A stretch of DNA of 54,716 bases, the filler included, from Catajapyx aquilonaris (lineage: Eukaryota), in the NCBI GenBank assembly GCA_000934665.2. It is 2 parts of 2 records of this genome, joined end to end, with 100 filler letters (N's around TTAATTAATTAA, not from the genome) between each part and the next. Parts side by side here need not be neighbours in the genome. Positions count along the whole stretch, not along the records: positions 27,413 to 54,716 come from KZ539281.1; 1 more part is not named here. The stretch is one strand, 5' to 3'. Positions 6,892 to 51,703 of this stretch are shown here, piece by piece (position 1 is the stretch's first letter; each line of letters opens with the position of its first letter). The translations under genes and the position numbers were made by a program. The notes under the pieces were generated by a model. It ran no database searches, was not told the DNA's origin, and saw only the letters and a program-made list of their open reading frames with translations.

Positions 6892-7204
6892 CAGGGGCGG
6901 ATCCAGGAATTTTTTCAGGGAGGGGCACAAGGGAACTTCTCTGGGGGGAGGGGGCAGGGCCCGCCGCATGCGAAAATTTTTCCGGTTCAAGGTCACAACC
7001 CTATCTCGCGACCCCAAATTTGGGGTCGCAACCGCAAAATGGAAAAGAACCCATAGAACAGTGCAATTTTGCACTGTTCTAGAGGGTTTTTGCGAGTTTC
7101 CCCCCCGTTTCTTTCAGGTTTTTTTTTTTTTCAGTTTTTCCCCCCTCTGTGGGAGCTCTGGGGGGGGGNGACGTGCCCCCGTGCCCCCCCTAAATCCGCC
7201 ACTG
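6892..7204. mobile_element. hAT-type non-autonomous element
   Basis: Termini CAGGGGCGGAT...ATCCGCCACTG. Exact 8-bp TSD ttggcaac at 6884-6891 and 7205-7212. A second copy of the left end starts at 53411. Confidence 0.85.
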
Positions 7205-21009: not shown

Positions 21010-21211
21010 AAGCCGTGTTTACGTACATGTGAGCGATTTGACGAGCGAAGTCTTCGCTGAGCGATAACAACGCTGAGTAACCAATATTGTTTGAGGTGAA
21101 AGTAACAATCCATTTTCGCCTCAAACAATACTGGTTACTCGGGTTACTCAGCGATGTTATCGCTCGGCGAAGAATTCGCTCGTCAAATCGCTCACATGTA
21201 AACGGCGGCTT
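21010..21211. mobile_element. Palindromic MITE (~200 bp foldback, possibly PIF/Harbinger-like)
   Basis: acatgtgagcgatttgacgagcgaagtcttcgctgagcgataacaacgctgagtaacc...ggttactcagcgatgttatcgctcggcgaagaattcgctcgtcaaatcgctcacatgt: about 85 bp arms with few mismatches around a short loop. Confidence 0.8.
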
Positions 21212-29680: not shown

Positions 29681-30851
29681 TTATCGTGGGCACATGGCAT
29701 GCCTTCCTCCGTCCACAGGCACGTTGGCACCTGTAATGAAACTGGCTTCGTCCGATGCCAAGTGGGCAATGACCTGAGCCACCTCCTCTGGCTGGCCAGG
29801 TCGTCCCAAAGCATGTGTTTCCTTCGCCCGCTCCAGAAACTGTAATGGAAAAAATTCACGTTACGAACTGGACAAAATAATGTCATATATTACATAATGC
29901 AGACCTTTTTGTAGTCCTCTTCACTCAGTCCGCCTCGACGCTGCAGCTCGGTCACAACAACACCTGGACTGTACAAATATTTTTAAAGTAGCGTTGACTG
30001 TCGAGCCATGAATGCTAAACCAATGTAGTACTTACTTGACACTGTTGACACGAACTTGTTTGCCTGCCAATTCTGTAAAGAAACAATTTAAACATCAACT
30101 AGCTGTTTCTGGAACTGCAAGCTTACCTAGTGCGACACATCGAGTTAGTTGGTCCACTGCCGATTTTGACATGCAGTACGCCAGCACGCCAGGGAACTAA
30201 AATTACAGTGGACATATAACTCACATTTCAAAAATTAATATTTGGCGAGACTTACAGATCTGATCCCATTTACGCTTGATACGTTGACTATGTTTCCTTT
30301 CGACTTGATCAGATGCGGAGTTGCAAGCATCGTCAGGTTGTAAACAGCCCTGCAATTTATTACGTATTTTTACTGGCTGAAATACAGTAAAGTTCTGCCC
30401 ACTTACCTGACATTAACGTCGAACACACGGTCGTACTGCTGCAGTGATGTATTCTCAATGGTGCCTGTCTCGATGATTCCAGCATTGTTAACCAGTATGT
30501 CAAGCCGTCCAAAATGTGCAACGGTGGCCTCGACAATCCTCTTCCCGTCCTCCTCCTTAGTCAACTCCCCTTCAACCACAAATGGCTTGCTTTTGGCCCC
30601 CTTTTCTTTCGCATAAGCTTCCTCGCACCTGGAAGCAACCTGCTGGAGATTAGCCACATTGCGGCCAGTCAGAGACAGCTGGGCTCCAAGACGGGAGAAA
30701 AGGACAGCAGTCGCAGCCCCTATACCCGAGCTTGCACCTGAAACAATGTCAACTCGTAACAAATGCGCTTGTACGAGTATGTCCTCCATATTTTTATATG
30801 TCGATGTCCGTATGTACCTGTGATAAGCGCAACTTTTCCGGCTAGCTTCAT
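29681..30851 (-). CDS. Classical short-chain dehydrogenase/reductase (FabG-like), 7 exons, ~262 aa
   Basis: Exons 30851-30818, 30737-30407, 30349-30256, 30196-30127, 30072-30036, 29968-29905, 29839-29681, all GT-AG and phase-consistent. Motifs TGASSGIG, NNAG, NVSS, YCMSK, RVNSVNPG and C-terminal [18 protein letters not shown]. Confidence 0.95.
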
Positions 30852-31174
30852 CTTTCAGCGGTACAGTTCAGTGGGTACAGAGTCGACTTATTTGTCCTTC
30901 ACCCGTGCTTCACCTTCACAGGTTTATCAGAAGTGAAAGTCTGGTAGTGCAGATGATACTATGTGTCAATATTAAAATAGTATTGAGTCAATACTGACCA
31001 CATAGTGAGGTTTCCACCATCAGATTTAATTACAACTAACGGAGCAATTAGTAGCCTGCAATGACATTCTATTCGCGGGACAGTCCTTATATAATTGACA
31101 TAAAAAGTACTAAAGGTGACTGGATAGTACAAAATTTTATTTGGCTACAAATAACACATGAATTGTGGACAAAG

Positions 31175-32704
31175 TTAACGCTGTTGTTGCTGGGCGCTCT
31201 TAGCGATTTGTCCTTTGAGAACGAGGATGCTCTGCCTTTGCTCTGGCGGAAGCATCGCGATCTGCTCGTCGCTCAGCTGCAGAACTTGCATGATTAGAGC
31301 GGCTTTCTCCTGGTCGCTTGCTCCGGGTCCTGCACCTGCCACAGCCGCAGCTGTTCCTGGAGACACGCCACCGACTCCGGAGGACATGCTGCTTCGATTT
31401 ATGTGCGGAGGGATTGCGCCGCGACCGGACACCATTGGCGGCATCGAGCCGGTTCTTGGGTCGACCCGTTCAAAGTGCTGGCTCGGGGGCGGTCCAGGCG
31501 GTTGAGATGGCTGTGATGGTGGCCCACGCATATCCCTATCCCTGAAGCGGGGGTCTCGCAGATCAAAGTCGGATGGCGGCGGTCCTTGTGGTCTGTCCCA
31601 TGTTGGGGGAGGACCAGGCGGTGGTCCACGGAGATCCTGGTCCAGGTTGCCTCGTCTTGGATCCATCTGTCTGAGGTCCATGTCGTGCCCGAAGTGGTGC
31701 GGCGGAGGGTGGTGAGGAGGCGGTGGATGGTGGTGGTGTTGACTCATGAAATCACGAGACGGAGCAGACACAGGGGGCGGTGGAGCCTGGGAATGAGGAG
31801 GGGGTTCAGAACGGGCTGGGAGGAATGGGGCGGCTGTACTTGCAGGGGAAAAGGCTGGCTGGGAGGAGGTCGGCTGAGGTAGGATCTGCGGGGCAGACAC
31901 AGGAGCAGGCACGGGGGCAGGCACAGGGGCCGGGACAGGAGCAGGCGGCGGTGGCGGCGGCATGCTTGAAGTTGATGGAACGTCCTTCAGATGAAGAGGC
32001 GTCGGAGCCACATTTGCTTTGCTCAACATGGTCTGAAATTGTCATGTCAATGTTAACATTGCAACCAGTTATTAATCAAAACCTGCTTACCACAGCCGTC
32101 TGCGGATCAACAATCCTCATGACAACCTGCGCCTGCAGTAGTGCATACGCAAGCTGCGGATTCTGCAGAAGCATGGTCCGTGCTTCGCTTGGATTGTTCT
32201 GTATGCACAGCTTCATCTGCTTCATAAGCTCAAACATCTGCTCCGGCGGCAAGGAAGCCACCGCTTTGCTTATCGCTTCCGGTGCCTTCTCCGGCTCCAC
32301 CTGTTCGCCATACGGATTCTCCACAACCGGACCCTGCAGCAGACTCTGCATCTCCATCCGCGACTTCTCCGTACAAGCATTATCCACCCGAAGTGTCCTC
32401 CCGCCGATCTCATACCCGTTCAGGTTCCGCATCGCGCTCAATGCCGTCTCCTGGTCCTTATACTCGCAGAACCCATATCCTTTAGGCTTCCCAGTCTCCC
32501 GGTCATACACCAGCTTGAAGCTCAGCACCGGCCCAACCTCACAGAAGATTTCCTTCAACTTCTCCTCAGTCGCTTCATACGGAATGTTCCCAACTAGAAA
32601 ATGAAACCATGTTAAGTACACCCCCTCATACATTTCATTGGACCCTACAAATCCTTACCGAACACTGATCGCATAGACTTGTCTATCAAGTTCTGGTCCG
32701 ACAT
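31175..32704 (-). CDS. CSTF2: Cleavage stimulation factor 64 kDa subunit, 3 exons, ~468 aa
   Basis: Exons 32704-32659, 32593-32091, 32032-31175. RRM (RSVFVGNIPYEATEEKLKEIF...KPKGYGFCEY), hinge (PEQMFELMKQMKLCIQNNP...NPQLAYALLQAQVVM) and C-terminal DQEKAALIMQVLQLSDEQIAMLPPEQRQSILVLK. Confidence 0.97.
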
Positions 32705-33118
32705 TTTTCTGCTCCAAAACTACAAACTTCTTCCAAGAAAATCGAATCGAACGACGGAAGCTTCCAATATGGCGACCGGCGAAAATCGGGCCGAAAAGCG
32801 CGTCGTTGCTGCTGCCCACTGCTATTTCAACAGCTAATTTTACACGTTCTATTCATATCCGCAGCTATATTCTGATTGGCTCATGTTTTTCCGATCCGGG
32901 TTCTGATTGGCGAATGTTCAACAATTGTTGATAATGCAGGTTGTGTAAATACTATTGTTTTGAATTCATGGTTTTAAACATATTTTTTTTAAACAATTGG
33001 GCTGTTGTAAATGCATTCAAAATTTTAGTTGGAATAGACGGCTCAAAATTTGTAAAAATTATATTCGCGTAAAAATTACGTGATTTCAGGAGCAGCAGCA
33101 GCAGCAGAAGAAACAAAC
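32705..33118. promoter_or_regulatory. Bidirectional promoter CSTF2 / MPC1
   Basis: Head-to-head ATGs 414 bp apart. YY1-like AATATGGCG (~32767) and two TCTGATTGGC CCAAT boxes (~32872, ~32902). Confidence 0.7.
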
Positions 33119-33684
33119 ATGGCGGGCAGACTGATCAGAAAGGGAATGGAGGAGCTCAAAAGCAAGGAGTTTCGACAGTACCTCATGAGGTAAGCCATAT
33201 CCAAACATATCTCAGTAAATGCACCACAATTTGCTTCACAATCTGGCATAAAAATATCAGCTGAAATCTGCAGTGTGTGGGCAAAAAAAAAATTATTTCT
33301 CATATGATGTGCAAAGATTCATACTTTGTAATGTAATTTTTAATTTTCAAGTACACACTTCTGGGGTCCTGTAGCCAACTGGGGTATACCACTAGCAGCC
33401 ATAGCAGACATGAAGAAAGATCCTAAATTCATCTCAGGGAAGATGACCTTCGGTAAGATGCACAAATTGGATTTGATTATGATTGACACGTGCTTATTGA
33501 GCCTTTTGATCCGTTAGCTCTCTGCTGCTACTCCGCCATGTTCATGCGCTTCGCCTGGAAAGTCCAGCCTCGCAACCTGCTCCTATTCGCCTGCCACATC
33601 ACCAACGAGACAGCGCAGCTCACACAAGGCAGCCGCTTCATTAATTACCACTACCTAGACTCCAAACCCGCAACGACAAAGTGA
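33119..33684 (+). CDS. MPC1: Mitochondrial pyruvate carrier 1, 3 coding exons, ~112 aa
   Basis: Exons 33119-33189, 33352-33452, 33518-33684. [26 protein letters not shown]...[44 protein letters not shown] at ~33803. Confidence 0.97.
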
Positions 33685-34091
33685 CACCCAATTTAAAATA
33701 TATTCATAATTACATAGCCGCCTGTAAAAAAAAATGTCAAAATTATTGTGTAGGTCCGTAGCCATTGTTGTCGGTATATAGATTTTATTAAATTGTTATC
33801 GCAATAAATATTTATGCCCCATGCATTTAATTTAATTGTTTTTTTCCCAGCCTAATTGCATAATCCGAAGAGCACGTGTAAAAGCAATGTTTGTCAGCAT
33901 GCAACTTATCTCGTGACCTTGAACAGTATCGACTACCTGTTAGCTATTCATAATCGTTTCATCATTGACTGCCAAATGCTATTTACAATCGTCATCACCA
34001 AACCTGCTTCTCTCCGGCGAGACACAATTTCACCCCCCTGTCTGCAATCATTAGATAACAAGAAATCATCTTTTTTCCAATTAGCCAAAAA

Positions 34092-34879
34092 ATGCTGAGC
34101 ATAACGCGAGTTAATCATGTACTGGTCAGGTATGTACAAACAATTAATCAGTTAACATTGTACTAAGACAGGTAACATATTGCAGATGTGCTGTACCGGC
34201 AATATCATCCATTGCGACCAGTCGCACCAAGCACACTTTGCCCGACCTGCCGTACGACTACAACGCGCTTGAGCCCACAATAAGCGCTGAGATAATGAAG
34301 CTCCACCACTCCAAGCATCACGCTACGTACGTTGCCAACCTGAACGTGGCGGAGGAGAAGCTGGCCGAAGCGCAGGCCAAAAACTGCGCCAAGACCATCA
34401 TCTCGCTTGGGCCGGCCCTCAGGTTCAACGGAGGCGGACACATCAACCACTCCATCTTCTGGCAGAACCTGACTCCCGGAGGAGGTGGGGAGCCATCGGG
34501 GGAGCTGATGGAGGCCATCAAGAGGGACTTTGGAAGCTTCGAGGCTTTCAAGACCAAGCTGAGCGGAACGGCCGTGGGCGTACAGGGGTCAGGATGGGCC
34601 TGGCTCGGCTACTGCAAGGACAGCAAGAGGCTGCAGGTCGTCGGCTGCCCAAATCAGGACCCGCTTGAGCCCACCACTGGTACGATGCAGCGATACGCAT
34701 CTCATAACATGTACTGAGCATTTAATGTTCCAGGCCTCGTCCCGCTATTCGGCATCGACGTGTGGGAGCACGCTTACTACCTGCAGTACAAGAACGTGCG
34801 CCCAGACTACGTTAAGGCCATATACAACGTCGCCAACTGGAAGGACGTCGCCGAGCGTCTCAAGAAAGCCCAAGGATGA
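34092..34879 (+). CDS. SOD2: Mitochondrial Mn superoxide dismutase, 3 exons, ~225 aa
   Basis: Exons 34092-34129, 34186-34679, 34734-34879. Transit-like N-terminus, [51 protein letters not shown] at ~35031. Confidence 0.98.
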
Positions 34880-35090
34880 ACCCCACCGGAGTGGATTCGG
34901 AATAGAAATAATACCAGGAAAGAACGATCGCAAAAGATTTTCTTTTCATATGATGTAAATTCGCTTCACTAATTTCGGTTGAACCCTGTCGGTGTAGTTT
35001 GTTTGACGGGAAATTTTTCCAGGAGCATGCAATAAAACCCAGTCGAAAAAAAAAAATATCTGACAGGTAGAAAACCTTCCGTCGTTGCCA

Positions 35091-36864
35091 CTACCCCAAT
35101 CCTAATGAGGTTGTGGAGACGCTGTGCGACGCGGACGCTACGGACATTGCCGAGTCGTTGCACAGGGACTCCTTCATTGGCATCTTCTGAACGTCTTTCC
35201 CTAGGTTTGGATGTAGCGGCACCTGGCGGGGGGCGAACATTTTTAAGTTTGGTTTCAAAGTGGCGTTACTAACAGTCGCTCTCACCTCAAAGTTGTACTG
35301 GAAGGTGAAGTAGTTCTCATGGGGAGGCTGCATCGGAGTCAGGTCCACACGGCTAGTCTTGTCTGCGACGCCCTGCTGTTGGTCAATAGGCCTCCTCGAC
35401 CCTGCTGATTTCGGACGGTGCAGCCCGGGCAGGGACAGTATCGGGCTGAAGCGAGACGTGGCCCACGGAGGCTGAGCCACCAGGCCGCCCATGATGCACC
35501 GCAGCCAGTATATCTTCTTGCGCTTCATGCAGGTGCTTCTCTCTGCACGGCAATGCAAATTATGACATGTGGGACAGCCAAAAATAATGTAGCCGTACCT
35601 AGATTGTCCACGATGTCCACCAGCGATATGAGTTCGTCCCAATGCTGCTTCACCTCCCTGTTCAGCCTCGAGCGCATCTCTGCCGCCTGTAATGAACGAT
35701 TGCCGTCAGATAACACCGAGCCATCTGCAACACGAATACGTACCTTCCAGTCAATGCTCGTCACCATGTCGATCTCCTTGTTCATCGCCTTCACTCGCAT
35801 GTTCTCTGCCTCCTCGTCCCGCTGCTTCAGCATCGCCAGATACTCCAGCTTCCTGCATCTAGCCAGGAACACTGCGAAAGAAAATAATGGCAGGCATAAT
35901 ATTACTCCCGACAACAACGTATGGAAGCTTACTTTTGGTGTAGAGGGACGCCACCAGCTCCTTGTAGATGGCCTGAGCGCAGTGGAAGAGGAGATGGTTG
36001 AGTTCCCTGCGACCGTACTCGGCATACATGGTCCATCTGTCTTGCTCATCCCGGAGGTTCTTTAGCTCCTGATCCAGCCGTGTCAGCTGCTCCCCCGTCT
36101 CTGTTAGGATGCATGTAAATACATCACAGCTCTACAAAGAAAGACTGTGCAAATACGAACCATTAACTTTTTGCTTCATTTGATCCACTGCGAATTCCGC
36201 GGCCCTCTGTACTTCGCTTACGTGACCGTTCACGACGGCGCTCAGGTCCTTCCACTCTTGGGTCAACTCCCTCTCCTTCTTAACGCAACTTCGGACAACC
36301 GCATTCAAGTGCGTAGTCTCGTCCTTTAGCTGCCGGATATTAAAATTGGCTCGTGTACTGCGTCAGAGGGACACTTCAAAATTTGCATTATGCAATTATC
36401 CGGATGAGTATATTGGATTTATACAATTACTTGTAAAATAAGAGCAGGCCATCATCAGTTGAGGCGGCAAATAGTATGTCAAGATCATGTGAGATCATAA
36501 AGCAACCAGTGTCGTATATTACAAATGGTGCTTCAGATTCAAGATTACAAGTGCGGAATAAATGCACAAGAACTTGTATGTTAGTATGTGAAATAAGTTA
36601 GTAGAGCAACTCACCTTAGCCCGCAATTTCTGTTGGTCTTGCCGCAAACCATCGGCGTGTGCTGCATATGTGAGTAACCTATCCCTCCGCCAGTCTAATC
36701 TGTGCGGTACAAAAATTCTCTGTAGTCTTTGCGTTCGAAGTGTGTGCCGGCTATACTTACAGAAACGTCAGGATGATGACCTGATCCTTTTCTTTCTCTT
36801 GCTTCAATTTCATCTTCTTCGCCCACCCCATCTCCTTGGGTTCCTTTTTACCCTTTGGCGGCAT
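35091..36864 (-). CDS. Coiled-coil protein, CCDC83/DUF4515-like, 8 exons, ~376 aa
   Basis: Phase-consistent GT-AG exons 36864-36761, 36699-36615, 36329-36161, 36100-35933, 35871-35744, 35686-35599, 35542-35286, 35222-35091. Starts MPPKGKKEPKE. Segments EQDRWTMYAEYG and RLNREVKQHWDELISLVDIVDNLE recall CCDC83 from memory. The family call is tentative; the gene structure is solid. Confidence 0.7.
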
Positions 36865-38853: not shown

Positions 38854-41800
38854 CTACTGAGCTTCACCGTTGTCGTCCGCATTGTCGCTGTTGGCTGTCC
38901 CGTTGGCGACCACTAACCTCCTACTGCTGCTGTCTTCGTCTTGCCTGGGCCTTTTGGCCTCTCTCACCAAATCATTGCTGTCCTCTTCCCCTTCCCCCTC
39001 CTCAGAGGAGTCATGCGTCCGTTTTAGAGTCGCCTCGCCCTCATCAGTAGTCCTGTCTACTGTGTCACACGATCGGTGATTCCCATTCACCCCATCTTCC
39101 TCCTTAACAGTCTCGGTCCTTTCCTCCTCCTCCTCCTCCTCAACCGCCATTTCCTCCACCTCCAACGGCTCTTCCTTGATTCCGTTTTCCGCCGTGTCCT
39201 CCTCCACTTCCTCTTTGACAACACTAGGCTCATGGTTGGTCCTGACCTCCACTGGCGGTGTGGGTTCTGGCGCGGGTGTAAGAGGAGAGGGAGGGGCAGA
39301 AACACTATTTTCCACCTGCTTGTCCTGCAACGAAGCTGAATTCATGGCCTTCTTCAGGGTCTCATTCTCCCCCTGCAGGTGCGAGATAAGCTCCTTTGAC
39401 TCCCGCAGCTGCTGCTGGAGGTAGTATATGGTGCTCTGCATGCCTTCCACGTCCTCGTCCAGCTCCTGGATGAACTCGTCCAGTTCTGACACGCAGAACA
39501 AGAAAACTCGATTAGTCAAGAATTATCTAGTCAAGCCAAGCTACATATGCAAATGTGCAATTAATGTGTAATGTCATTAAAATACGTAATTGCTGCACAT
39601 ATTTACGTTACAAGCCCCCAAAAGTGGACTTGGGAGTTTTTGAAATCAGACCCCTCAAATGTACCGAAGCAGTACATAATAATCATTAATCTTGCCCTGT
39701 TCATATTCAATATTTTGTATCAGAATACACGATGATAATAAAATAATAATAATCAGCTTCCAACTCGACTTACATCTACTCGTACCTTCATGTTTTGCAA
39801 ATTTTTCATTACTTGAAGGCTGCATGGTCTAGCAAAATTCTGATTAAACATGTACTCACCTGACTGCGATTTCTTCATTTCCTCGCTGAAGTTCTTCTGA
39901 AGAGCCAGGTCACCTTCCAGCTTGGCCAACCGGCCGCTGGAGATCATCTTCCCCAGCTCTTCATTTTCCTGATACAAAAGCCTGCATTTGGCCATCAACC
40001 TCTTGCCTGTGTTACTGCAAAAATTGAACAAAAAAAATGCAAAAAATAATAATGTCAAGCTACATTTTTCTCACTTGTCACATGTCAACCCAGCCCTCCC
40101 CCACCAACACACACATATATACACACACAAAACACGTGCCCTCAGGAAACTCCAGAACCCCCTACTCTTTTACGAGGTTTCCTGAGGGAATATTCCTGCC
40201 TACTCATTCTTTCAATTCCTGGAATGGTTTGGGTAGCACTTTGTAGGTCACTGACTGCACCATTACTTTTCTGGCGTCATCTTATCACAAGACTTCCATT
40301 GAGGGGCTTCGTAGCGAGGGGGATGCCGATTTTCATGTGCTCATCACAGGTTCAAGACGCGCTGGCCAAAGAGCTGTTAAGTGACGAACTGGACAGACAG
40401 GCCTTTAAAGCAGGAGCCGAGCTGATGAATCTCCCAAAACGCTGCCTCATCCCAGCCATCAACATCCTCCATCGATCCTCACTCCCAAAATTTTAGCACT
40501 CAAACTGACACAAAACTATGGCAGCCACTGGAAACATCCAGCTCCTTTCCCCCCCCCCCCATTCTTTGGCTTATTTTTTTCTTTCTCACTGCCACTGGTC
40601 AAATTAACCCCATAGAAAGAACACTGTAGAAGCACGAAGCACTCATTCATGCAACGCAAATGGTGACACATGAAAAGGGTAAAACACAGACAAACAACAG
40701 ACGAAACAGGGTTGTCAAACATGGATTTCTTGGGGGGGGGTTTTCACTTCGTCTCTTGACGCACAGCACTTCTTGTTTGCCACCAACACTGACACGTCTT
40801 TTTTTCCCCCCCCTCTCAAACGAACAAATTTTTTTTTAAACCAAATAAATAAAAAAGGCACACAACTTTTTAAGTCAGGCCGCACAATATCTGGCTGGCT
40901 GCATGCCACCTGCTCGCAACTTAAAAATCTTTTATCACTGATTCATCACGAAAGTACAAGAGTTCATTTATGGCAACCCACTGCACCACTTGCACTTTTC
41001 ACATTCATTTTATCAACACTTGCCATATTTACATCACAACTTTAAAACGCTACAGATTATGTATACAAAATGAACAATTTATACACTTCACATAATCAAA
41101 TACTGACAAATATAACTACTTCCCCCCCTTCATTACTCAACAAGAACACCACTGCACTGGCTAAATCTGATAAAAAAATTGTCCCATTTCATGATACGTA
41201 ATTCCTCCATGTTTACGTACAGTAATTTATTCCGCCAAAAGTAGAACATGAGGTCTATGAATGGAGGAGGAAAATGACAATTACTTAGGGTCAATCAGCC
41301 CTGCAGAGCTTGTAAAATAACTTCAAGTACATCATTCAAGAAAATTACACTCAATGCACGGTACAACTGTTGCTGAGTCACAGACACAATGCAAATTTTT
41401 TTATGACATGTAAAAGACATTGCACTGCTGAGTAAGCATTTTTAACAACCGCTCATTAGTGTCTATTTAACCCTGGAACCATGACGTCGGGTCTGTAAGA
41501 ACCCCAAAGGAATTAAAATGCATTAAAATGATAGTTACAATGAACTTTTGCCATTTTTTAAAAGTATATGACAGGAAGTGCAAGTTTATTTTGAATTAGA
41601 GATCATTTTAGGCATTTTTCACAGAATGATTGTATATAGTCAATACACTGAAATGTATAAAAAAATTAATAAAAATTAAAATATGGTTGGGGTCCTAAAA
41701 GACCCCACGTAACGGTTGCCGTAACTTTCAGGCACGTCACGGTTCCATGGTTAAAAAGCAAAAATTAAGCTTTCTTGCTACATTTGTAATGACACGTTTT

Positions 41801-44800
41801 CTTTCACTTTGATTGACCCGTTACAAATATCAGTAGCATCACACTTCTATGATTCACTTATATTTTTTATTTATTTTATTTTTTATTTAATACCCTTTAC
41901 TGGCATTGGATTCACTTATAAATTGTATGACAGGGCTCAAATGGGTATCTGGTCTACTTTGCGTATCTCACAGCTCCATCAGTAACATCTCATAGACAGC
42001 AATATCAACTTGCTCTTGTCACCTCACCTTCAATTTTGGCAAAGTTTTGTACACATAATTGAAAACCCCCAGTAATTAGTTTGTACATACTTAAAACATG
42101 TAGGTGAAGTCACAGGCATAAGTGTACATTCACATCCCCAAAAAATTTTACCAATAAGCTTACTTATGATAGTTATGAACCACACAGTATTTGGGCCAAG
42201 GTCAAGCAGGTCCATCTTTCCGTACAACATTCAAGTAAGCCTGAGCATAGCTCAACTCTGCTCAAAGGCAGATCCCACCCACTGCCTTATCTGAATGGGA
42301 CCCACTGTGATACCAGAGGGCAATGCAAAGCTTGAAATACGCAGAGTTTTCATACATCATACATTTGACAAAAGGTACTTGAGAAATTATCACAAGCAAT
42401 GCATAACAATTTCGCATCTTCTAGTCGCCCTCAGTTATCGCAGTAGGTGATTCGGAGTGGGTGGATATCAGGACGGAAGGTGAGGTTTTGTTCTCATGTT
42501 ATCTGGAGACGCAAGGTCCCTTCTAGTCAGCATTAACACATGAACACAAGAAGGTATGTGTAATACTGTAACATGTCACTCATCAGCACGTTTACCAGTT
42601 GTCTTCTTCTACACATGAAATACACACCCAATGAAAGGCTGCTTGAGACAATACCAAAAGTTTGGTTTCAGAAGTCACTCGGCTGCGATGCACATACTTA
42701 TTCTAACAACAACACATTAAAAGCAATTACACTGCAGTATGATTGTGATCATAATGTCATGCCTCTTTCACAGGAACTTGACAGATACATTTTGGGAATG
42801 GTACGGAGGGTGTTTCTCTGCCCAAGATGATAATCTGTAGACGGGACGAGTTGATGGGTTGTTCACTCGTGAGCCGCATTCTACGCACAGTCCAGATTTG
42901 ACGTGCTCCTTTTAGCTTTGTGCATTCAGCCTACTTTGTTTGCAAAATCAGGGGTGAATGATCCATTAACTATTTCCCACCTCTTCTTCAACAGCCCTTC
43001 CACAGCCATGATATGCCGACGGTTCGAGCACAAATGGCTCCCCCGTGTTCTCTTTGCATATCACACACAAGTATCAAGGCAATCGGCTTAAGCACAAGTA
43101 TGTTCATATTAAATTTCAACAAATAGCACAGTTCCCCGTCCATTTATCATTGCACTTTTGAATTGCTACATGCATCATGACCAGTGTCCATTGAATCCTA
43201 ACAGTTACACTATTTTTACTGCCCTTGAACTAGTGACTCGGTAAACTAACAATCCTGGCACATAACTTTTCATTTAGGCATGAAGAAAAAAAAATGAACC
43301 AACATAAACCATACCATAGACTTGCTTGCACTTCACATCAGAAATCCCACACACATCACTATTAGCAATTTCCCAGATGTATTACCTGTGCAAGTCTTCT
43401 ACAATATTCAAAACCTTTTGACTTACGATCCTATGTGATGAACAGGAAGATGATACAAAAATGACAAAATATCACATTCACCTCATGCAGGAACAAAAAT
43501 ATCTGACAAACACACATGAGAAAGTGCTTCACGGTAACCCACATACAGCCTCATGTTTTTCTTGTAACTCTCTGCAGCAATTCAAAGATTAAAACAGCTC
43601 CTCATGAAATTTGGGGGACTGAAATTACACATCAGAAAAACCAACTAAGCCAAGTTTCACATCTCATTACAATACCAAGTCATTTTTGTTTTGCAGGTAA
43701 TATTCCTACATCATGAATATTTTTTTAAATGGAGGTGAAAATCTTAACGTGATACATATGTCACGAAACAACTGGTGAAACGATGCCTTTTCTCATTCGA
43801 GTTGCTTTTCTTGAATATTGTACGTAGCAGCCATCACCTGGTCCATGACATGTTGCTTGAAACTTACACTCCAAATGAGATCATCACAATGTGGTCAATA
43901 CTGCAAGTATTCCTATGAATATTAATAAGGCGCAATAAATAATACGAAACCCAGTTTGCCCAGTGACTCAACTAAACAATTTAAATGACTTGCAGCATAA
44001 ACATTTCATAGCAAAACTATTCCCCCAACAACTGGTATCCTACCATATAAAAAGTAACACTGCTGCAACCCTTCACAACATCTCTCAATACTCAAAACTT
44101 GTGCAGTGCACTTGCACCCCCAGCACATTGACACAGATGAGAATGAGGCATGCAACAAAGTGTACATGGTGAGCACATTCATGTAAGTGGATAATGAGAG
44201 TAACACATCATTTCAATCGCTTGAGAACATTTAGTGTACATTCTCTTTCAGGCCTCAAAACTAGGTGCAATTATTCAGTTCTCCGACATTTATCACTTTG
44301 TAGTGTGACATACGTGTACAGTACTTCAAGCGCGAGCTTTAAAAATAATTATACTAGCAAATAATGGTCATCTTCACAAGAATGACGTAATGATCATCAC
44401 ATTCTTTCCACAAATAATTCTAATCATTTAAAAACTCATATGCAAATCTACACAACCTATTTCCATACATCATAAAAAATGTGATTACACAAAGACAATT
44501 TTAAAAAGGGGGCCGTTGTCGTAGCGTAAATCTAAATATTTCAAAACTGAGGCTCACTGATTTGGAATGCCTTTGTGCAACATTAACGGACAGTCCTTCA
44601 GAACAAACGTTGATCACTCACTACGGCTATGTGCAGTGCAAGAAATGTGACTTCTGAAAAAGCTACAGAAGTGACACTTACCAGGCATCATCATTCCTTG
44701 AAAATGGTACAGCTCAGTGATGTTCTTTAATCTTCAGCATGGTTTTGTGTGGAAATAAATCCTTGCTGTGCACATTTACATATGCCTTTCGTTACATTAC

Positions 44801-47800
44801 AGCCTCACATTAATACAATGACAGCCAAGCTATCACAATAAACCAAGTCATGCATGTAAAATGTGACACCACACTGAGAGAGACTTTGAAGTGCAAAAAA
44901 CATTCCACACGTGCTCAGAAGAATGTCGTTGCCACTTTTCTTGCTTCATTTCCTCAATGTTGAAATATTCCAAAGTAATACATAGACATGTTTGCAGAGT
45001 ACAATTTGCACTAATCTTAACCCGCTGGATGACTGACACAACTATTTGTGAGAATCACATGTGCCTAAAGCAAGTGTCATCCACCAGATCTTCAACCCAT
45101 ATATCTCTAGTTCCATCATTTATCTTTTGCGGCGCTTATGATCAAAGTTGTACACCAAATAAAATTCAATATTCCAGGAGCTGGATTCAAACAAATCCGT
45201 AATTACTTGCAACATTTTCTTTCCATAGTTCCAGCTCTGAAACATTGCTAACTAATGACATTCAATTTGTTCACGCTTTGTGTCCGTGTGTGAATCCAGC
45301 CCTAGGATAATTGCAAGTATTTGCCTGCACCAAGTATGACTTTCTTTCCAATAAAAAAACAGTGCAAAAAACACATACAATGCACACATTGCAGTTCGAT
45401 TGGAACAGAAGTGCCGTATGATCCATAGAGAACACGTTATGTGTGAAGACACAATTACCACAAAAGAAAACTATGCTTCATGTCCTCAATTAGGCTAATT
45501 AATATCTAGATAAATATTCATACACTTGAAATTAAAATTATCATATTATGCAGAATAGGCTTATAAACGACATTTCAAATACAAAAGCTACTTCTACATT
45601 ATGAGCACCTTCTAAACAGATGCTCAAGTTACTTGTACATTTTTTTTAAAAAAATAAAGAGCTGAAAGTAAGATAAAAAGAAAAGAAAATAATGTGTCAT
45701 TATGAGTAATTGTCATACTTACAGTGATGGTCATCTTCAAAGCTCAAAGTCCTTTGGAAGTGAATGAATAGTCCACTTTCAATGGCGCGCTTTTTGTTCT
45801 TAAGTAGAGGCAAACAAATCTCTTGGGGCTCCATGCAGAGTTGGACACTCCCCCCACCCCAACCCGAAAAGGTTCTCTGTCTGTCTCAGTCTGTCGGCCC
45901 TCTTAATATCCGCTCGCAATGTTCAGTTGCTCTCTCTCTCTCCCTCTCTCTCTCTCTCGCTTGTGTGGTGTGGCCAATGCATAGAAAGTTCTAAACCCAA
46001 AAAGTGCCATTCCAGGAAATGTTCAGCTTGTACTAAATAAACCAAGACCCACGCTGGTACCGAAAAGTTCACTCAGGACACTCCCATTAGGTTTTTCTCG
46101 TCCCCTCTCAATAGTGCATGTTGGGAGTCCCATATAAAGTTTACAAGAGTGAACGGCATATAAAGGGTGCCTATGGGGGGGTGCAGGGGGTGGGGACAGC
46201 GGGGACAAAAGTTACCTTCCAAGTTCCAAAAAATCCCTTCCCAATCCCCGAGACTAGTTCTGTGAGAAGAATTATAGTCACAACTGGAAAGAATCCCTGA
46301 GGGAAGCAGCATTTTTTTGCTCTCTTTGCACCTGTCTGGGGTGAACTTCCAGGCACTGAGTTCGTTCTGGGTCTCCTCCATCTTGGCCTTGCTATCGTCC
46401 ACCTCCTTCTTCATGCGCTGCATCATCAGGTTGACTGCAGGGTCTAGCAGGGACGACCTGAGGGCCTGGGCTCCCGGCGCCTGGGCAGCCTTCAGCTCGT
46501 TGATCTGGTTCTGGAAATGCACAAACAAAAAGAGGGAACCAGTTTGGAAACTGAACTTTAAGAAGCACATCAAACATCTGGATCCTGCTGTGAGAAAGTC
46601 AGTTAACCTACTACACATCCAAGAGCACATTAGTGTTATTCAAGTAGATTGAAAGCGCGCCACTGTCTCAAATATTAAAAATTAAATTGCATTTTTAAAA
46701 CACACATGATCTTCATTATGGTGATGCAAGTCCAGCATTTTTAGATCGCTTCTTCCGAACTACTGTCTTCATTTTCGAAACTTTTCCAGAGTACAAAAAT
46801 TAATTCTTGGATATCCAAAAAATTGCAAGAAAACCGCCTTCCCACAGCAGGATCCACTTCAGGCGTGACACTCACGGCATAGTCCTGCATCTCCTGTTCT
46901 TTTGTGGTGAGCCGCATGACTAGAACGTTTTCCCTCCGTGTAGCTTCCAGCTGTTGCTGCCTCAGCTTCTCTTCCGGTTCCCTCAAGCTTGCCAGCTCAG
47001 CTGGAGAAAAATGATTTTTCATGAGGAATGATTAGTCAGACTGTACAACCAAGCAAAAAGCAACATGACAATACGAGATAATAACTCAAGCAGTAAATTA
47101 AAGCATAAGTACCACACTCGGAGATGGACAAACATCACCAGGCAGTGAATAAGTTGTCTCACGTCTAGCAGAATTGTTTGCTTTTTTTCCGACATACTGT
47201 TTTTCTACCAAAATCTCTCATTTCATGGTTAAATAAGCCGTCTCAAAGGTCCCTCACACCCAGTATATAGGAATCTAGGAATATAGGAAGATAGGAAATC
47301 TAGGAAATACATGTCACATCCACTTTGTGTTCATATGTTGAACCAATCTTCAGAGGATTGTAACTCCCAAAAAGGTAACATTCCTATAATAAAATATTCC
47401 TCTACTCAGAGCCATGGCCAACTATTGATGAGGAAAGAACCTCAATGTCATAACACTACTTGAAACAGCTCAATAATGGTCAAAACATGCGATGATACTC
47501 ATCAAATAAACATGGAGTGGCTCTGCAGGTTTCAATATTATTGTCACCTTGTCACTCGAACTGGTTCACATTCAATAGGGGCTTTTACACATTTTAAAAC
47601 TTTTTCATGTATTTATTGCCTAGTACATTCTACTCCTCCAAGTTTGCAAGTGTACTACATTAATCAATAATCGCAAGCGCAAAAATTATTCCCATATTGT
47701 CTAATAGTTGCATTGTGATAAAGCTCCATATTCAGACAACCCATCACAATGTAACAATTTTGCCTTAAAAAGTTTCGAGTCCCTGTAGTGTAGACGATGC

Positions 47801-48991
47801 ATCTGTAGATGGAAAACCAGTTAATATGAAGTGCAAAAATTCCCGACACCACGTTGAGATCCGCCAAACAAGGAAGGAAGATGATGCAAGTCAAACATTG
47901 CACACTCAAACCCACCAAGCACACTCAAAGAGATGCATCTGTTGCTGATAAAGCAGTCAAACAATATCCTAAGCTTGAGCATATCAGGGACCCTACAGCT
48001 GTCTAGCACACAGATTCCCATCCTCAAAATTCAATAGCTGTATACATCCGCCTAATGAGAACCTGGCCTCTCTTCTTCAGAACATGAAAATTATTTAATG
48101 TAAACTTCCTGCTGCTTACTGACGTATTTCCCAATTTTGCATTAGTTGACGTGTGCATATTCGCAACACCAGAAAGTACAGTAGAACCAAGTAGAACCCC
48201 AATTATCCGACTCCTCGACCGTCCTGCTCCTGAAATAAATGTTTTTCTCATCAAAAACTGTACGCATTTGTTTCTTATTGCCTTAGTTGAATTGTACACA
48301 CAGTACAGCTGTGTATGTACAAGTTCTTAGAAAACCATAATATTTTTTTGTTGTGTTTCATTCCAGTTTTTTTTTGCTCTTCGGCTTATCCGACCTTTTT
48401 GGAGTTCCAACCTGGTCCCGTGGGTGACGGATAATCAGGGTTCTACTGTAACATTGTACGCAATATCTTCCCTGCATTGTGCTTACGTCTGTACTGTAAC
48501 TGGGTTCAGTGGGGCTTAACGTCGGCCTATTTCTGCCTCTAAGGCTCAACACCGACGCCAGGGGATGGTCCTCCTCCGTCGGTCCCGTGTGCATGTGACA
48601 TTGCGCGAGTGCACGTTAAAGATCCCCAGAGTGGCCAAATTTCTGTACTGTAACTGTACTGAACAACAATAACTCTTTATTCCAATGCAAATGTGGTGTC
48701 AGTGATCCGCAAGTTTATACCAATCCCTTTGTTAGATTATGTCATTTTTCCCATTCTGACAAAGAGTATGCGGAACGTACCTTCCTGTACGGCATGGTTG
48801 GCCTGCTTGTCCTCCAGACTTGCGATGTACCTCTCCTGCTCCTTGTAGAGCCTGAGCAGCTCCTCCTTCTGCATCTGCTGCAGTGCCTCCTCGCTCATCC
48901 TCTTCCTGGCCGCCCCAGCTGGCCCCGAGGCTGGTGGAACATGCTGCTGGGGCGGGGCAGGGGCGGATGGGGCCGAGGGCGGGTCGGCCAT
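38854..48991 (-). CDS. WTAP: WTAP / female-lethal(2)d, m6A writer complex subunit, 5 coding exons, ~433 aa
   Basis: Exons 48991-48781 (after a 5' UTR exon ending ~49074), 47000-46876, 46510-46332, 40014-39860, 39485-38854. Motifs RRENVLVMRLTTKEQEMQ, LLDPAVN, ELSAWKFTPDSNTGKRLMAKCRLLYQENEELG, ELDEDVEGMQSTIYYLQQQL. Confidence 0.97.
41471..41750. mobile_element. piggyBac-type MITE in the WTAP long intron
   Basis: TTAA|CCCTGGAACCATGACGT ... ACGTCACGGTTCCATGG|TTAA, with internal gggtc...gacccc subterminal palindromes. Confidence 0.85.
48179..48448. mobile_element. pogo/Tigger-type MITE
   Basis: TA|CAGTAGAACC...aattatccg and cggataatcagGGTTCTACTG|TA. Confidence 0.8.
48500..48642 (+). mobile_element. 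SINE fragment carrying a Nin/Deu-domain-like core
   Basis: GC-rich insert ending gtgcacgttaaagatccccagagtggccaaatt, resembling the GCACGTTAAAGATCCC core of Nin/Deu-domain SINEs (recalled, not searched). Confidence 0.55.
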
Positions 48992-49689: not shown

Positions 49690-51076
49690 ATGTCTGCAGT
49701 TCAACGGGTGTTGAAGTTCACCGGACACTGCCTGCTGCCACTCCAGGGCACCGCAGCAAGACGGATAAGCACTGCCAATGTAAATTAAATAAATTATTCG
49801 CATACATTATAACGTGCATGGTAATACATTTGACATTGAAAGGCTTCAAGGTCGTTTACATGTTACGGTTCACTTGACATGTTCAGTCGCAACGTACAGA
49901 TTACAGAAGACGACTGATGCGAATCGTATGATGAAAAATATTTTGCAATTGTTGCGCTTGCAATTTTACAGAAGTACATTCCACGCCGGGCTGTACTGTA
50001 TGTCCCTGGAAATGATGAGAGGAAGCTGCGGAAGATCCCGGGGCTCAGGGCGGACTGCATTGTTTTGGACTGCGAGGATGGTGTGGCGCTCAATAGAAAG
50101 GTGACAGCACGCTGAGCTCCGGCAATTAATTCTGAAGCATTAAATATTTTATGAACGTCTCGCAGGCGGAAGCCCGAAAGACAATCCGTGACGTCCTGTC
50201 ATCTGGATTGATCAACTTTGGGCGATCCGACTGTTCTGTACGATTCAATTCTGTGGACAGCGGTCTGTGCGAGGAAGACATGAAGGTCATTCTCACAGGC
50301 GATAAGCTTCCGGCGACCATTCTCTTACCGAAAGTGGAGTCTCCAGAAAATGTCCAGTGGGTATGACTATTGGTCTTGTAAAATTACAATGTATATTTTC
50401 AATATCCGAAATCTAGTTTGCAGAGAGGCTGCGTAACATAGTGCCCAGCGATTCCAAGGTCAGCTTCCGCCTGGTGATGTACATCGAATCGGCAAGATCG
50501 ATGCTGAACCTTCCTGCCATTTGCCAGAAAGCGGTTGAGATGAGTTCATCTTCTCCATTTATTCCCGACGGACTCATAATAGGTTCAGATGATCTGCTGG
50601 CCGACATTGGTGCTACGAGATCCAACGAGGCTCGAGAACTAATTTACGCCAGGCAGTACTTTGTCATGGTGGCCAAAGCGTTTCGGTTGCAAGCCATAGA
50701 TCTGGTGTACATTGACTACAAAGGCAGGTGTAGCCGAGACCCAATTTTTTTTATTGAACTTGTGTGTTTGTGCTCACTGTAATCGCAAACTTTACACACA
50801 GATCTGGATGGCCTGAAGCGGCAGTCTGTGGAAGGAGCGCATTTTGGATTCACCGGAAAGCAAGTGATACATCCCGGGCAGGTTCCGGTGGTCCAGGAAT
50901 CGTACACGCCTAGTACCGAGAAAGTGGAGTGGGCCAGGCAGCTAATCGACGCCTTTGAGCAACATCAGCAGTCAGGAAAAGGCGCTTTCACATTCCGGGG
51001 TCACATGATTGACATGCCCTCAGTTCTTCAAGCCAAGAATGTCGTTGACATGATGGAAGCTCTTGGAAATGCATGA
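49690..51076 (+). CDS. CLYBL: Citramalyl-CoA lyase / citrate lyase beta-like, mitochondrial, 5 exons, ~331 aa
   Basis: Exons 49690-49779, 49972-50100, 50166-50360, 50417-50723, 50802-51076. Motifs YIPRRAVLYVPGND, LDCEDGVA, LPKVES, QAIDLVYIDY, GFTGKQVIHPGQV, GKGAFTFRGHMIDMP. Confidence 0.96.
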
Positions 51077-51632
51077 ATTAAATAGAATAATTACTCTTCC
51101 AGGCACTGTGCCAAGAAAATGTATATCAATTGAAATTATGTAATAATCTATGTAAAAAAAATAATAATGATAATCTGAGATGATTATGTGTGGCTTTTAT
51201 TAGTGATATTCGAGCCTTGAGAAAGCATATGATCAGCCACTTGAAAAGTGAGTTAGTCAAGTGTTGACTTGAGCAAATCAGTCTGAGTGTGATAAGATTT
51301 ATCATTTTTGGGTTTGCGTGACTCTTGCATCACACATTCTGATAATATTTCCAAGCTAATGTTGGAGAATAAAATGCACAGTAGACGTTCCATACATCTG
51401 AGGTGGAATTTACAGGAAGGAAATGTCATACCACAAACATCTGTCCTATCATGCTGGATATTATAACGGAATTATAATTCCTCACTAGAGAGGCATGCCT
51501 TCGAGGAATTATTTGTTTGATAGCTGCAGATAACATGGCTATTTTTTATGAGAAACAATGAGCTGGAATTTCAAGCATGTGGCACCAAAGCTGCTGACGC
51601 TGGTGCTTACTTGTAGATCAAAATACACATCA

Positions 51633-51703
51633 ACGCCTCAGGATTATATTGTCGTATGTCCACGTTTTAACAATGGACATACGACAATATAATCCTTAGG
51701 CGT
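51633..51703. other. Near-perfect 30-bp hairpin
   Basis: acgcctcaggattatattgtcgtatgtcca / tggacatacgacaatataatccttaggcgt, one mismatch, 11-nt loop. Confidence 0.85.

What the first reader, a model, noticed from the sequence alone, without database searches (positions are those of the whole stretch)
40139..46305. Long-range RNA bridge and possible conformational switch joining the two ends of the 6.3-kb WTAP intron
SEEN: the two ends of WTAP intron 46331-40015 carry several collinear, nested reverse-complementary segments ~5.5-6 kb apart. (i) 46021-45966 pairs with 40213-40262: CAUUUCCUGGAAUGG/CCAUUCCAGGAAUUG (14/15 bp), then UUUGGGU/ACCCAAA, AG-ACUUU, CAUUGGC and CACCA, about 55 nt of imperfect duplex. 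(ii) 46081-46068 pairs with 40177-40190 (12/14). (iii) 46303-46284 (CCCUCAGGGA...UUCCAG, ~30 nt from the donor) pairs with 40139-40155 (CUGGAG.UUCCUGAGGG, ~125 nt from the acceptor). (iv) 45906-45868 pairs with 40377-40406 (the gacagacag block). Because the CCUGAGGG/CCCUCAGG motif is duplicated, the same arms can instead fold locally: a perfect 12-bp hairpin 40139-40150/40177-40188 near the acceptor, and 46305-46291/46084-46068 near the donor. KNOWN: long-range base pairing can loop out introns and control splicing or intronic polyadenylation. INFERENCE: a selected two-state RNA structure that tunes splicing versus retention of the regulated intron of an m6A-writer subunit, perhaps m6A- or ADAR-sensitive.
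Basis: partly seen in the sequence, partly recalled or inferred. Interest (0 to 1): 0.82.

Follow-up and report, generated by a model that had tools for sequence, protein, structure and literature searches.

The report
Complementary ends of a long WTAP intron
The two ends of the one long intron of this animal's WTAP gene really can pair with each other more strongly than expected, but this looks like a species-specific decayed inverted repeat and there is no sign of the proposed RNA switch.

Summary
The gene is WTAP-like (Pfam Wtap). Intron 46331-40015 (6317 nt, GT..AG, minus strand) is spliced exactly so in an RNA-like contig.

Only segment (i) (46021-45966 x 40213-40262, -48.3 kcal/mol) beats chance on its own: 0/3000 shuffles and 1/5782 natural window pairs reach it. 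Pairs (ii) and (iii) have probability ~0 in the folded ensemble. Pair (iv) is marginal.

I found an additional 22-bp helix joining the very ends of the intron (46330-46309 x 40016-40040).

Joining the two ends lowers the fold energy by 36-46 kcal/mol. None of 166 shuffles, 71 natural pairs or 10 stretches from relatives reach this.

Against selection:
- The antisense strand bridges equally well.
- Duplex (i) is about 93% Watson-Crick with many gaps.
- The orthologous introns of the only relatives found (65-1634 nt) share no sequence with this one, and three of four have no end pairing.

The most likely reading is a decayed palindromic repeat in a once-short intron, later spread apart by insertions. 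At most it acts as a passive bridge. A two-state, m6A- or ADAR-sensitive switch is unsupported.

The parts
40015..46331 (-). WTAP intron, 6317 nt, GT..AG, phase 2, between Pfam Wtap profile positions ~84/84. Donor is CAG|GTGCAA, acceptor TTTTTGCAG|T.
   Evidence: Sequence. Spliced joint 40014->46332 in X5 contig. Pfam hits on the flanking exons. The same intron position occurs in 10 of 20 related loci.
45966..46021 (-). 5' arm of duplex (i), 310-365 nt from the donor. Its core CATTTCCTGGAATGG is itself a near-palindrome.
   Evidence: Pair probability 0.86-0.98.
40213..40262 (-). 3' arm of duplex (i), 198-247 nt from the acceptor. Its core is CCATTCCAGGAATTG.
   Evidence: (I8). Shuffling it in silico costs about 12 kcal/mol of bridging energy.
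46309..46330 (-). 5' strand of the terminal helix (intron nt +2 to +23; covers the donor GUGCAA and an A7 run).
   Evidence: First 30 x last 30 nt gives -21.2 kcal/mol: 0/2066 other intron 30-mers reach it, but 6/400 composition-matched shuffles do.
40016..40040 (-). 3' strand of the terminal helix (intron nt -2 to -26; the polypyrimidine tract).
   Evidence: Same calls. Shuffling it in silico costs about 12 kcal/mol.
46115..46214 (-). C-rich block that pairs with the G/GT-rich block 40065-40164. The pairing is mainly compositional.
   Evidence: Raw rank 2 of 7503 block pairs, but 28/400 composition-matched shuffles reach it. Knock-out costs about 8 kcal/mol.
40065..40164 (-). G-rich/(GT)n block, partner of the C-rich block.
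45815..45914 (-). Region of pair (iv), 5' side (perfect GACAGACAG 9-mer at 45885-45877).
   Evidence: Raw rank 1 of 7503. 3/400 shuffles reach it. Knock-out costs only 1.6 kcal/mol.
40365..40464 (-). Region of pair (iv), 3' side (CTGTCTGTC at 40392-40400).
40139..40188 (-). Local hairpin near the acceptor: perfect 12-bp stem, 26-nt loop.
   Evidence: p 0.83. It is one of 5 such non-low-complexity hairpin loci in the window, against about 0.19 expected (my arithmetic).

Best explanation
The intron ends carry a lineage-specific, decayed inverted repeat. Duplex (i) is its best-preserved piece, and weaker collinear patches lie over about 400 nt on each side. Compositional complementarity adds to it: an A-run against the polypyrimidine tract, and a C-rich block against a G-rich block.

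Its most likely origin is one of the palindromic, foldback- or MITE-like repeats that earlier notes report as common in this genome. It would have sat in a once-short intron, and later insertions into the AT-rich middle pushed its arms 5.7 kb apart. That would explain why both arms lie near the splice sites without any selection.

In the pre-mRNA the arms can zip into a panhandle. If that forms, it acts only as a passive, constitutive bridge that shortens the donor-acceptor distance. It is not a two-state or signal-sensitive switch.

Shown: the complementarity, its excess over controls, normal splicing, and the lack of conservation in the relatives found. Inferred: the repeat origin, the insertion history, and any effect on splicing.
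For: - Duplex (i) is a DNA-type inverted repeat: 55 Watson-Crick pairs and 4 G-U pairs, with several bulges.
- The antisense RNA bridges as well as the sense RNA (-37.1 vs -36.4).
- The strongest block pairs of the whole intron are end-to-end and nested: raw ranks 1, 2 and 4 of 7503. That fits arms of one old repeat about 400 nt long.
- The intron ends are GC 0.48 and 0.46 and the middle is 0.377. The middle holds a high-copy repeat (41388-41748 at ~35000x, against ~33x elsewhere).
- Orthologous introns in relatives are only 65-1634 nt. They share no sequence with this one, and three of four show no end pairing (ddG -3.4, -2.9, -3.1; L008 -23.4).
- Small perfect hairpins are about 25-fold over-represented in the window.
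- Unchecked earlier notes describe decayed 340-420-nt inverted repeats and MITE-like palindromes in other introns of the same genome.
- The ensemble shows no alternative state.
- The RNA contig shows ordinary splicing.
Against: - The arms sit at single-copy depth at >=90% likeness and have no other copy in the 54.7-kb window. No repeat family has therefore been shown.
- No transposase or other Pfam domain was found in 19 intron ORFs.
- No target-site duplication or terminal inverted repeats were seen.
- The terminal helix starts at +2/-2 of the intron, which a transposon relic does not explain. It must then be put down to composition and chance (6/400 composition-matched shuffles).
- The overall bridging energy is a strong outlier: 0 of 247 controls of all kinds.
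- This long intron has the weakest donor of the three RNA-confirmed WTAP introns (GTGCAA against GTGAGT). That is the setting where a selected bridge would make sense.
Confidence: 0.5

Rival explanations
1. A selected, constitutive intron-bridging structure. As this intron grew to 6.3 kb, duplex (i) and the flanking helices were kept because they loop out about 5.7 kb. That brings the weak GUGCAA donor next to the branch point and acceptor, as Drosophila long-range stems and fish (AC)m-(GT)n introns do.
For: - Bridging energy is far outside all controls.
- (i) is the top-ranked duplex of 7503 in the intron, and it links the two ends.
- The full-length MFE keeps the termini and the core of (i).
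- The arms are single copy at >=90% likeness.
- It is the only long intron of the gene and has the weakest donor.
- Raker et al. 2009 report conserved stems enriched in long introns (PMC2724269, abstract and section 10 read).
- Lin et al. 2016 show bridging structures at intron boundaries (PMC4691745, abstract read).
Against: - No strand asymmetry at the level of the whole arms.
- The segment-level sense bias is mostly compositional, and I had picked those segments by their sense energy.
- (i) lies 200-365 nt from the splice sites, further than the 150-nt window used by Raker et al.
- The duplex is imperfect, as decaying repeats are.
- Four long introns of relatives' WTAP genes (L005 intron 2, L007 intron 2, L008 intron 2, L009 intron 4; 1.6-4.7 kb) show no such bridging (ddG -9.5 to -14.9).
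- The orthologous introns share nothing with this one.
- The 5' arm is made minutes before the 3' arm, so local folds and proteins come first (general knowledge).
Confidence: 0.3
2. A splice-site masking panhandle. The 22-bp terminal helix sequesters the donor (+2 to +23) and the polypyrimidine tract (-2 to -26). Once fully transcribed, the intron tends to be detained or retained, which would give a read-through product of 85 extra residues or an NMD target.
For: - The helix covers both signals exactly.
- It scores -21.2 kcal/mol. The 56 non-cognate pairs of real intron termini have mean -5.4 and minimum -14.1.
- Its pair probability is 0.69-0.95.
- The read-through frame stays open for 258 nt.
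Against: - 6/400 composition-matched shuffles reach the same energy, so it is largely an A-run against a U-run.
- U1 binds the donor co-transcriptionally, long before the partner strand exists (general knowledge).
- The only RNA evidence is the spliced form, and no RNA contig covers the first 150 nt of the intron (contigs cannot show absence).
- It is not present in the relatives (-5.2).
Confidence: 0.08
3. One reading: a selected two-state structure in which the duplicated CCUGAGGG/CCCUCAGG motifs toggle between local hairpins and long-range pairs (ii) and (iii). This would tune splicing against retention or intronic polyadenylation, and would be sensitive to m6A or ADAR.
For: - The motifs and all the alternative pairings exist.
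- The acceptor hairpin is a perfect 12 bp.
Against: - (ii), (iii) and the donor-local alternative have probability ~0 in the ensemble.
- They add nothing beyond chance to the collinear score.
- CCTNAGG is a near-palindrome and is not enriched in the window.
- No poly(A) signal lies near the donor.
- No conservation.
- No published regulated WTAP intron was found.
Confidence: 0.03
4. Pure coincidence: nothing here exceeds what random intronic sequence gives.
For: - BLAST sees (i) only at E=1.3 against the window.
- A simple pairing score for 500 x 500 nt is reached by 38/1000 shuffles and 102/2500 natural pairs.
- The locus was picked from a very large scan.
Against: - 0 of 247 controls reach the bridging energy.
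- For (i): 0/3000 shuffles and 1/5782 natural pairs.
- The top-ranked duplexes of the intron connect its two ends.
Confidence: 0.09

Closest known systems
Conserved long-range intronic stems of Drosophila (Raker, Mironov, Gelfand, Pervouchine 2009, PMC2724269; abstract and section 10 read)
   Same: Complementary boxes inside one intron, far apart. They are enriched in long introns, and are proposed and shown to loop out introns, bring distant splice sites together or mask sites.
   Different: Those stems are defined by conservation in at least 7 of 12 species and lie within 150 nt of the splice sites. Several were confirmed with compensatory mutations. Here no conservation is seen in the relatives available, (i) lies 200-365 nt from the sites, and nothing has been tested experimentally.
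(AC)m-(GT)n bridged introns of teleosts (Lin et al. 2016, PMC4691745; abstract read)
   Same: Complementary sequence at opposite boundaries of an intron, predicted to form a bridging structure. The terminal helix here also involves the region normally bound by U2AF.
   Different: The fish class rests on simple complementary dinucleotide repeats found in about 10% of zebrafish genes. Here the 3' end has a (GT)n-like tract but the 5' end has (GA)n and no (AC)n. The pairing comes from a unique imperfect inverted repeat and an A-run/U-run. It is a single locus.
Repeat-derived inverted pairs and MITE/foldback palindromes in introns (kind recalled from general knowledge; earlier unchecked notes on this genome)
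   Same: An imperfect, Watson-Crick-dominated inverted repeat that is strand-symmetric, lineage-specific and sits in a genome with many small palindromes.
   Different: No multi-copy family has been shown for these arms: depth is single copy at >=90% likeness, and there is no second copy in the window. No terminal repeats or target-site duplication were seen.
Yeast intron 'zipper' stems between donor-proximal and branchpoint-proximal sequence (cited in the introduction printed with the outline of PMC4691745: Libri 1995, Charpentier and Rosbash 1996; otherwise recalled)
   Same: Intramolecular pairing that shortens the effective distance between the donor and the branch point.
   Different: Yeast introns are a few hundred nt, and the role of their stems is experimentally proven. 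Here the span is 5.7-6.3 kb in an animal gene and is untested.

Membership tests
Conserved long-range splicing stems (Raker et al. 2009 type) | Two complementary boxes of at least 9 nt within one intron | tested here: met
   14/15 core plus extensions, 59 pairs in all.
Conserved long-range splicing stems (Raker et al. 2009 type) | Boxes conserved across several related species | tested here: not met
   The orthologous introns of L002-L014 share no similarity with the window's intron ends (one 12-mer only). Three of four long ones have no end pairing. The relatives are distant (exon 3 only 55-75% identical), so close relatives remain untested.
Conserved long-range splicing stems (Raker et al. 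2009 type) | Each box within about 150 nt of its splice site | tested here: not met
   (i) lies 310-365 nt from the donor and 198-247 nt from the acceptor. Only the terminal helix is within 150 nt.
Conserved long-range splicing stems (Raker et al. 2009 type) | Splicing changed by opening the stem and restored by compensatory mutations | not testable with these tools
   Needs a minigene experiment.
(AC)m-(GT)n bridged introns (Lin et al. 2016) | Complementary AC and GT dinucleotide repeats at opposite intron boundaries | tested here: not met
   A GT-rich tract at 40102-40139, but a (GA)n tract and no (AC)n tract at the 5' end.
(AC)m-(GT)n bridged introns (Lin et al. 2016) | A predicted stable structure bridging the two splice sites | tested here: met
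   The MFE of the full intron and of the mini-constructs pairs +2..+23 with -2..-26, and forms (i).
Repeat-derived inverted pair (transposon, MITE or foldback relic) | Arms belong to a multi-copy family in the genome | tested here: inconclusive
   Depth is single copy at >=90% likeness and there is no other copy in 54.7 kb. An old family at about 75% identity would escape both tests, and no whole genome is held.
Repeat-derived inverted pair (transposon, MITE or foldback relic) | Strand-symmetric, Watson-Crick-type similarity, as expected of DNA duplication | tested here: met
   55 Watson-Crick and 4 G-U pairs. Sense -56.0 against antisense -54.3 for (i). ddG -36.4 against -37.1.
Introner-type intron created by a transposon with terminal inverted repeats | Intron position is new to the lineage | tested here: not met
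   The same position and phase is occupied by an intron in 10 of 20 related loci of varied intron length.
Two-state RNA switch | Two mutually exclusive folds of comparable stability | tested here: not met
   The alternative long-range pairs (ii) and (iii) and the donor-local fold have probability ~0. One state dominates.
ADAR-edited intronic dsRNA | A-to-G differences between RNA and DNA in the arms | not testable with these tools
   No RNA contig covers the arms. No RNA run was listed.
WTAP/Mum2p family (host gene) | Pfam PF17098 above the gathering score | tested here: met
   Exon 3 scores 66.1 bits and exon 4 80.7 bits, against a cut-off of 35.

The most novel reading that the evidence does not exclude
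This lineage evolved its own panhandle around the expanded WTAP intron. The 22-bp helix joining the weak donor to the polypyrimidine tract, locked by duplex (i), would make the intron a detained or slow-splicing intron whose removal depends on helicase or protein unwinding. That would give post-transcriptional control of the dose of an m6A-writer subunit.
Probability: 0.06. Interest if true: 0.6.

Novelty: new member of a known kind. Interest (0 to 1): 0.27.

Why it matters
If the pairing were selected, it would be one more case of long-range RNA structure helping or gating the splicing of a long intron. The gene builds the m6A methylation machinery, so splicing control could set the dose of the writer complex.

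As the evidence stands, it mainly illustrates two points. Strong end-to-end complementarity can arise in an expanded intron of a palindrome-rich genome without conservation. And several of the 'nested alternative pairings' seen by eye come from near-palindromic motifs. The terminal donor/polypyrimidine helix is the one feature that a repeat origin does not explain.

Tried and rejected
- RNAduplex on 500 x 500 nt is useless as a statistic. With 30-nt loops allowed, the energy grows with length (-253 kcal/mol).
- No whole genome is held for this window, so the arms could not be searched genome-wide.
- Earlier findings: nothing near the locus, nothing like the arms, nothing in relatives. A word search for WTAP found none.
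- No RNA holder was listed among the sequencing runs. Run X5 nevertheless behaves as RNA (spliced contig). It does not cover the arms, so editing and retention could not be assessed.
- Rfam: 0 matches at E<=1 over 39800-46600.
- Pfam on 19 intron ORFs: 0 hits.
- An all-vs-all block scan with non-overlapping blocks split arm (i) across two blocks and missed it. It was repeated with overlapping blocks.
- Introner origin rejected, because the intron position is shared.
- A STAT-like TTCCWGGAA site as the explanation for the core of (i). The motif occurs only at the two cores, but 12/100 shuffles give at least 2 copies. The duplex also extends beyond the core (the remainder alone is reached by 18/3000 shuffles and 38/5755 natural pairs). 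This was left as a remark. That TTCCWGGAA is a STAT-type site is recalled, not tested.
- Papers: the JBC 2021 WTAP paper (PMC8605363, passages) and the CLK2 paper (PMC11481226, passages) say nothing on a regulated WTAP intron. The search 'WTAP + intronic polyadenylation' gave 19 papers, none about the WTAP gene's own intron judging by the titles and abstract starts of the 10 listed.
- My memory that human WTAP has a 151-residue isoform ending at this exon boundary is recalled and was not checked.

Full report
**What is there**

The minus strand of 38.8-49.0 kb encodes a WTAP-like protein.
- Exon 3 (46510-46332) matches Pfam Wtap positions 23-84 at 66 bits. Exon 4 (40014-39860) matches positions 84-142 at 81 bits.
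It is 6317 nt, with donor CAG|GTGCAA and acceptor TTTTTGCAG|T.
- A 1292-nt contig of run X5 joins 39485>39860, 40014>46332 and 46510>46876. That confirms the three introns and shows the normal spliced mRNA.
- This is the only long intron of those three; the others are 374 and 365 nt. It also has the least consensus-like donor, GTGCAA against GTGAGT in the other two.

**Check of the listed pairings**

All six pairings exist at the stated coordinates. RNAduplex gives:
- (i) -48.3
- (ii) -12.9
- (iii) -22.6
- (iv) -28.9
- acceptor hairpin -20.9 (perfect 12 bp)
- donor-local alternative -13.6 kcal/mol

At the DNA level, BLAST sees (i) only as a 40-nt, 75% inverted match with E=1.3 against the window. 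A simple pairing score over 500 x 500 nt is reached by 38/1000 shuffles and 102/2500 natural pairs.

**Thermodynamic tests with competition**

I joined the first and last 500 nt and asked how much energy the joint fold gains over the two separate folds.

| Test | Result |
|---|---|
| Observed, 500+500 | -36.4 kcal/mol, 170 inter-arm pairs |
| 39 natural pairs, same spacing and strand | mean -11.6, sd 4.6, min -24.0 |
| 69 dinucleotide shuffles | mean -14.5, min -29.1 |
| Two reversal controls | -15.0 and -14.9 |
| Observed, 400+400 | -46.2 |
| 14 global shuffles | min -25.2 |
| 83 shuffles keeping composition in 25-nt bins | mean -15.8, min -36.1 |
| 32 natural pairs | min -19.5 |
| 4 orthologous introns of relatives | -3.4, -2.9, -3.1, -23.4 |
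| 5 other real introns plus one upstream stretch | -9.5 to -19.3 |

None of these 247 controls reaches the observed value. The ends of this intron are therefore truly more complementary than background.

**Which parts carry the signal**

- In an 8 x 8 matrix of 100-nt blocks, only the block pair holding (i) stands out (z -6.5). For that pair, 0/1500 shuffles reach it, as do 5/2164 GC-matched natural pairs.
- For the exact arms, 0/3000 shuffles and 1/5782 natural pairs reach -48.3.
- In-silico scrambling shows that (i) contributes about 12 kcal/mol. Scrambling (i), (iv) and the termini together returns the value to background, -10.2.
- Without (i) and the terminal 25 nt, the collinear chain score is ordinary (338/1000 shuffles).
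- In an all-against-all scan of 7503 overlapping block pairs in the intron, (i) ranks first by GC-adjusted z. The (iv) region and the C/G-rich pair rank first and second by raw energy. All three link the two ends in nested order.
- Against composition-matched shuffles of each segment: termini 6/400, C/G-rich 28/400, (i) 0/400, (iv) 3/400.

**The terminal helix**

Intron positions +2 to +23 (46330-46309) pair with -2 to -26 (40016-40040). The helix has 22 bp, two G-U pairs and two small bulges, at -21.2 kcal/mol.
- No other 30-mer of the intron pairs as well with either end (0/2066 each).
- 56 non-cognate combinations of real intron termini have mean -5.4 and minimum -14.1.
- Much of this is an A7 run facing the U-rich polypyrimidine tract, as the 6/400 composition-matched result shows.

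**The two-state claim**

The 1300+1300 construct keeps the terminal helix and (i), and the full-length intron MFE (-1778 kcal/mol) keeps the terminal helix and the core of (i). The 1300+1300 fold also keeps the local acceptor hairpin. In the partition function of a 600+600 construct:

| Element | Pair probability |
|---|---|
| Termini | 0.69-0.95 |
| (i) | 0.86-0.98 |
| (iv) core | 0.99 |
| Acceptor hairpin | 0.83 |
| (ii), (iii), donor-local alternative | ~0 |

So the model predicts one state, not two. The 'duplicated' CCUGAGGG/CCCUCAGG motif is the near-palindrome CCTNAGG, which is not enriched in the window (13 found, 9.5 expected). The two cores of (i) are likewise near-palindromes and are the only two TTCCWGGAA sites in the window. 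Perfect hairpins of at least 12 bp occur at five non-low-complexity loci in the window, against about 0.19 expected by my arithmetic. The acceptor hairpin is therefore one of a common kind here.

**RNA-level selection or DNA-level repeat**

Duplex (i) has 55 Watson-Crick and 4 G-U pairs, and its antisense version is as stable (-54.3 against -56.0). The whole-arm bridging energy is the same on the antisense strand (-37.1). Individual segments are more stable in the sense direction. Most of that is composition, and I had chosen those segments by their sense energy.

**Repeat status**

The arms lie at single-copy depth (25-33x), while 41388-41748 (~35000x) and 48247-48968 are high-copy repeats. 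That test required at least 90% likeness, so an old family would be missed. No whole genome is held. The intron ORFs have no Pfam domain (0/19), and Rfam finds nothing.

**Relatives**

A scan of metagenome contigs with the exon-4 peptide returned 20 loci.
- Ten have an intron at the same codon position and phase, with lengths of 65, 80, 82, 86, 90, 1153, 1165 (twice), 1438 and 1634 nt.
- One genomic locus (L004) lacks the intron.
- The position is therefore old, which excludes an intron created by a transposon.
- Their introns share no sequence with the window's intron ends. Their termini do not pair (-5.2), and three of four long ones show no end bridging.
- These relatives are not close (exon 3 is 55-75% identical), so conservation within the genus or family remains untested.

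**Interpretation**

Chance alone is unlikely. The pattern fits a decayed inverted repeat:
- It is an imperfect, strand-symmetric, lineage-specific repeat with weaker collinear patches over about 400 nt per side.
- The intron ends are GC-richer (0.48 and 0.46) than the AT-rich, repeat-bearing middle (0.377).
- The orthologous introns elsewhere are far shorter.

A palindromic repeat in a once-short intron, with its arms separated by later insertions, would place the arms near the splice sites without selection. Unchecked earlier notes on this genome describe similar decayed 340-420-nt inverted repeats and MITE-like palindromes in other introns. I give this reading 0.5.

A selected constitutive bridge gets 0.3. 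It would work like the Drosophila stems of Raker et al. 2009 (abstract and section 10 read) or the fish bridged introns of Lin et al. 2016 (abstract read). What favours it is the size of the outlier, the end-to-end position of the best duplex, the weak donor, and the terminal helix, which a repeat relic does not explain.

**What could not be done**

I could not test:
- covariation in close relatives;
- a genome-wide repeat search;
- RNA coverage of the arms, for editing or retention;
- any experiment.

My searches found no paper describing a regulated intron of the WTAP gene itself. The link to a short human isoform ending at this junction is only recalled.

Noticed in passing
window 46309-46330 and 40016-40040: A 22-bp helix joins the first and last ~25 nt of the intron, covering the donor and the polypyrimidine tract.
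   Followed up: yes
window 41388-41748 (and 41749-42470): A high-copy repeat inside the intron. Summed contig depth is ~35000x, against ~33x for the flanks. The next 700 nt sit at 110-250x.
   Followed up: partly
window 48247-48968: A second high-copy repeat in the first WTAP intron (~9600-16000x). It has many 'opposite strands' joints at 48546-48643, suggesting a palindromic element.
   Followed up: no
window 7054-7081, 21071-21153, 51640-51696: Other perfect hairpins of at least 12 bp with short loops. The one at 51640-51696 has a 23-bp stem. Five loci in all, against ~0.19 expected.
   Followed up: partly
window 30400-36400 and 49900-51100: Neighbouring genes read from ORF translations (my reading, not searched): short-chain dehydrogenase-like, CSTF2-like (31175-32654, minus), MPC-like (33344+), Mn-SOD-like (34148-34880, plus) and citrate-lyase-beta-like (50417-51076, plus).
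   Followed up: no
L004:443-1871: A genomic WTAP locus of a relative that lacks the intron between exons 3 and 4 but has a ~1-kb intron between exons 4 and 5. L017 and L020 instead have an intron inside exon 3.
   Followed up: partly
L008:4095-5728: The orthologous intron of one relative (1634 nt, the longest of its group) shows moderate end bridging (ddG -23.4, z -3.5 with 14 shuffles). Its three sister introns show none.
   Followed up: partly
window 46176 and 40798: Contigs of run X5 stop matching at these intron positions and continue into unlike sequence (table 7). They could be repeats, chimeras or minor transcripts.
   Followed up: no
window 46511-46875: The termini of the short WTAP intron 2 also pair rather well (-15.0 kcal/mol, against a non-cognate minimum of -14.1).
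   Followed up: no
window 40216-40224 and 46010-46018: The only two TTCCWGGAA sites of the window are the cores of the two arms of (i). The motif resembles a STAT-type palindromic binding site (recalled, untested).
   Followed up: partly
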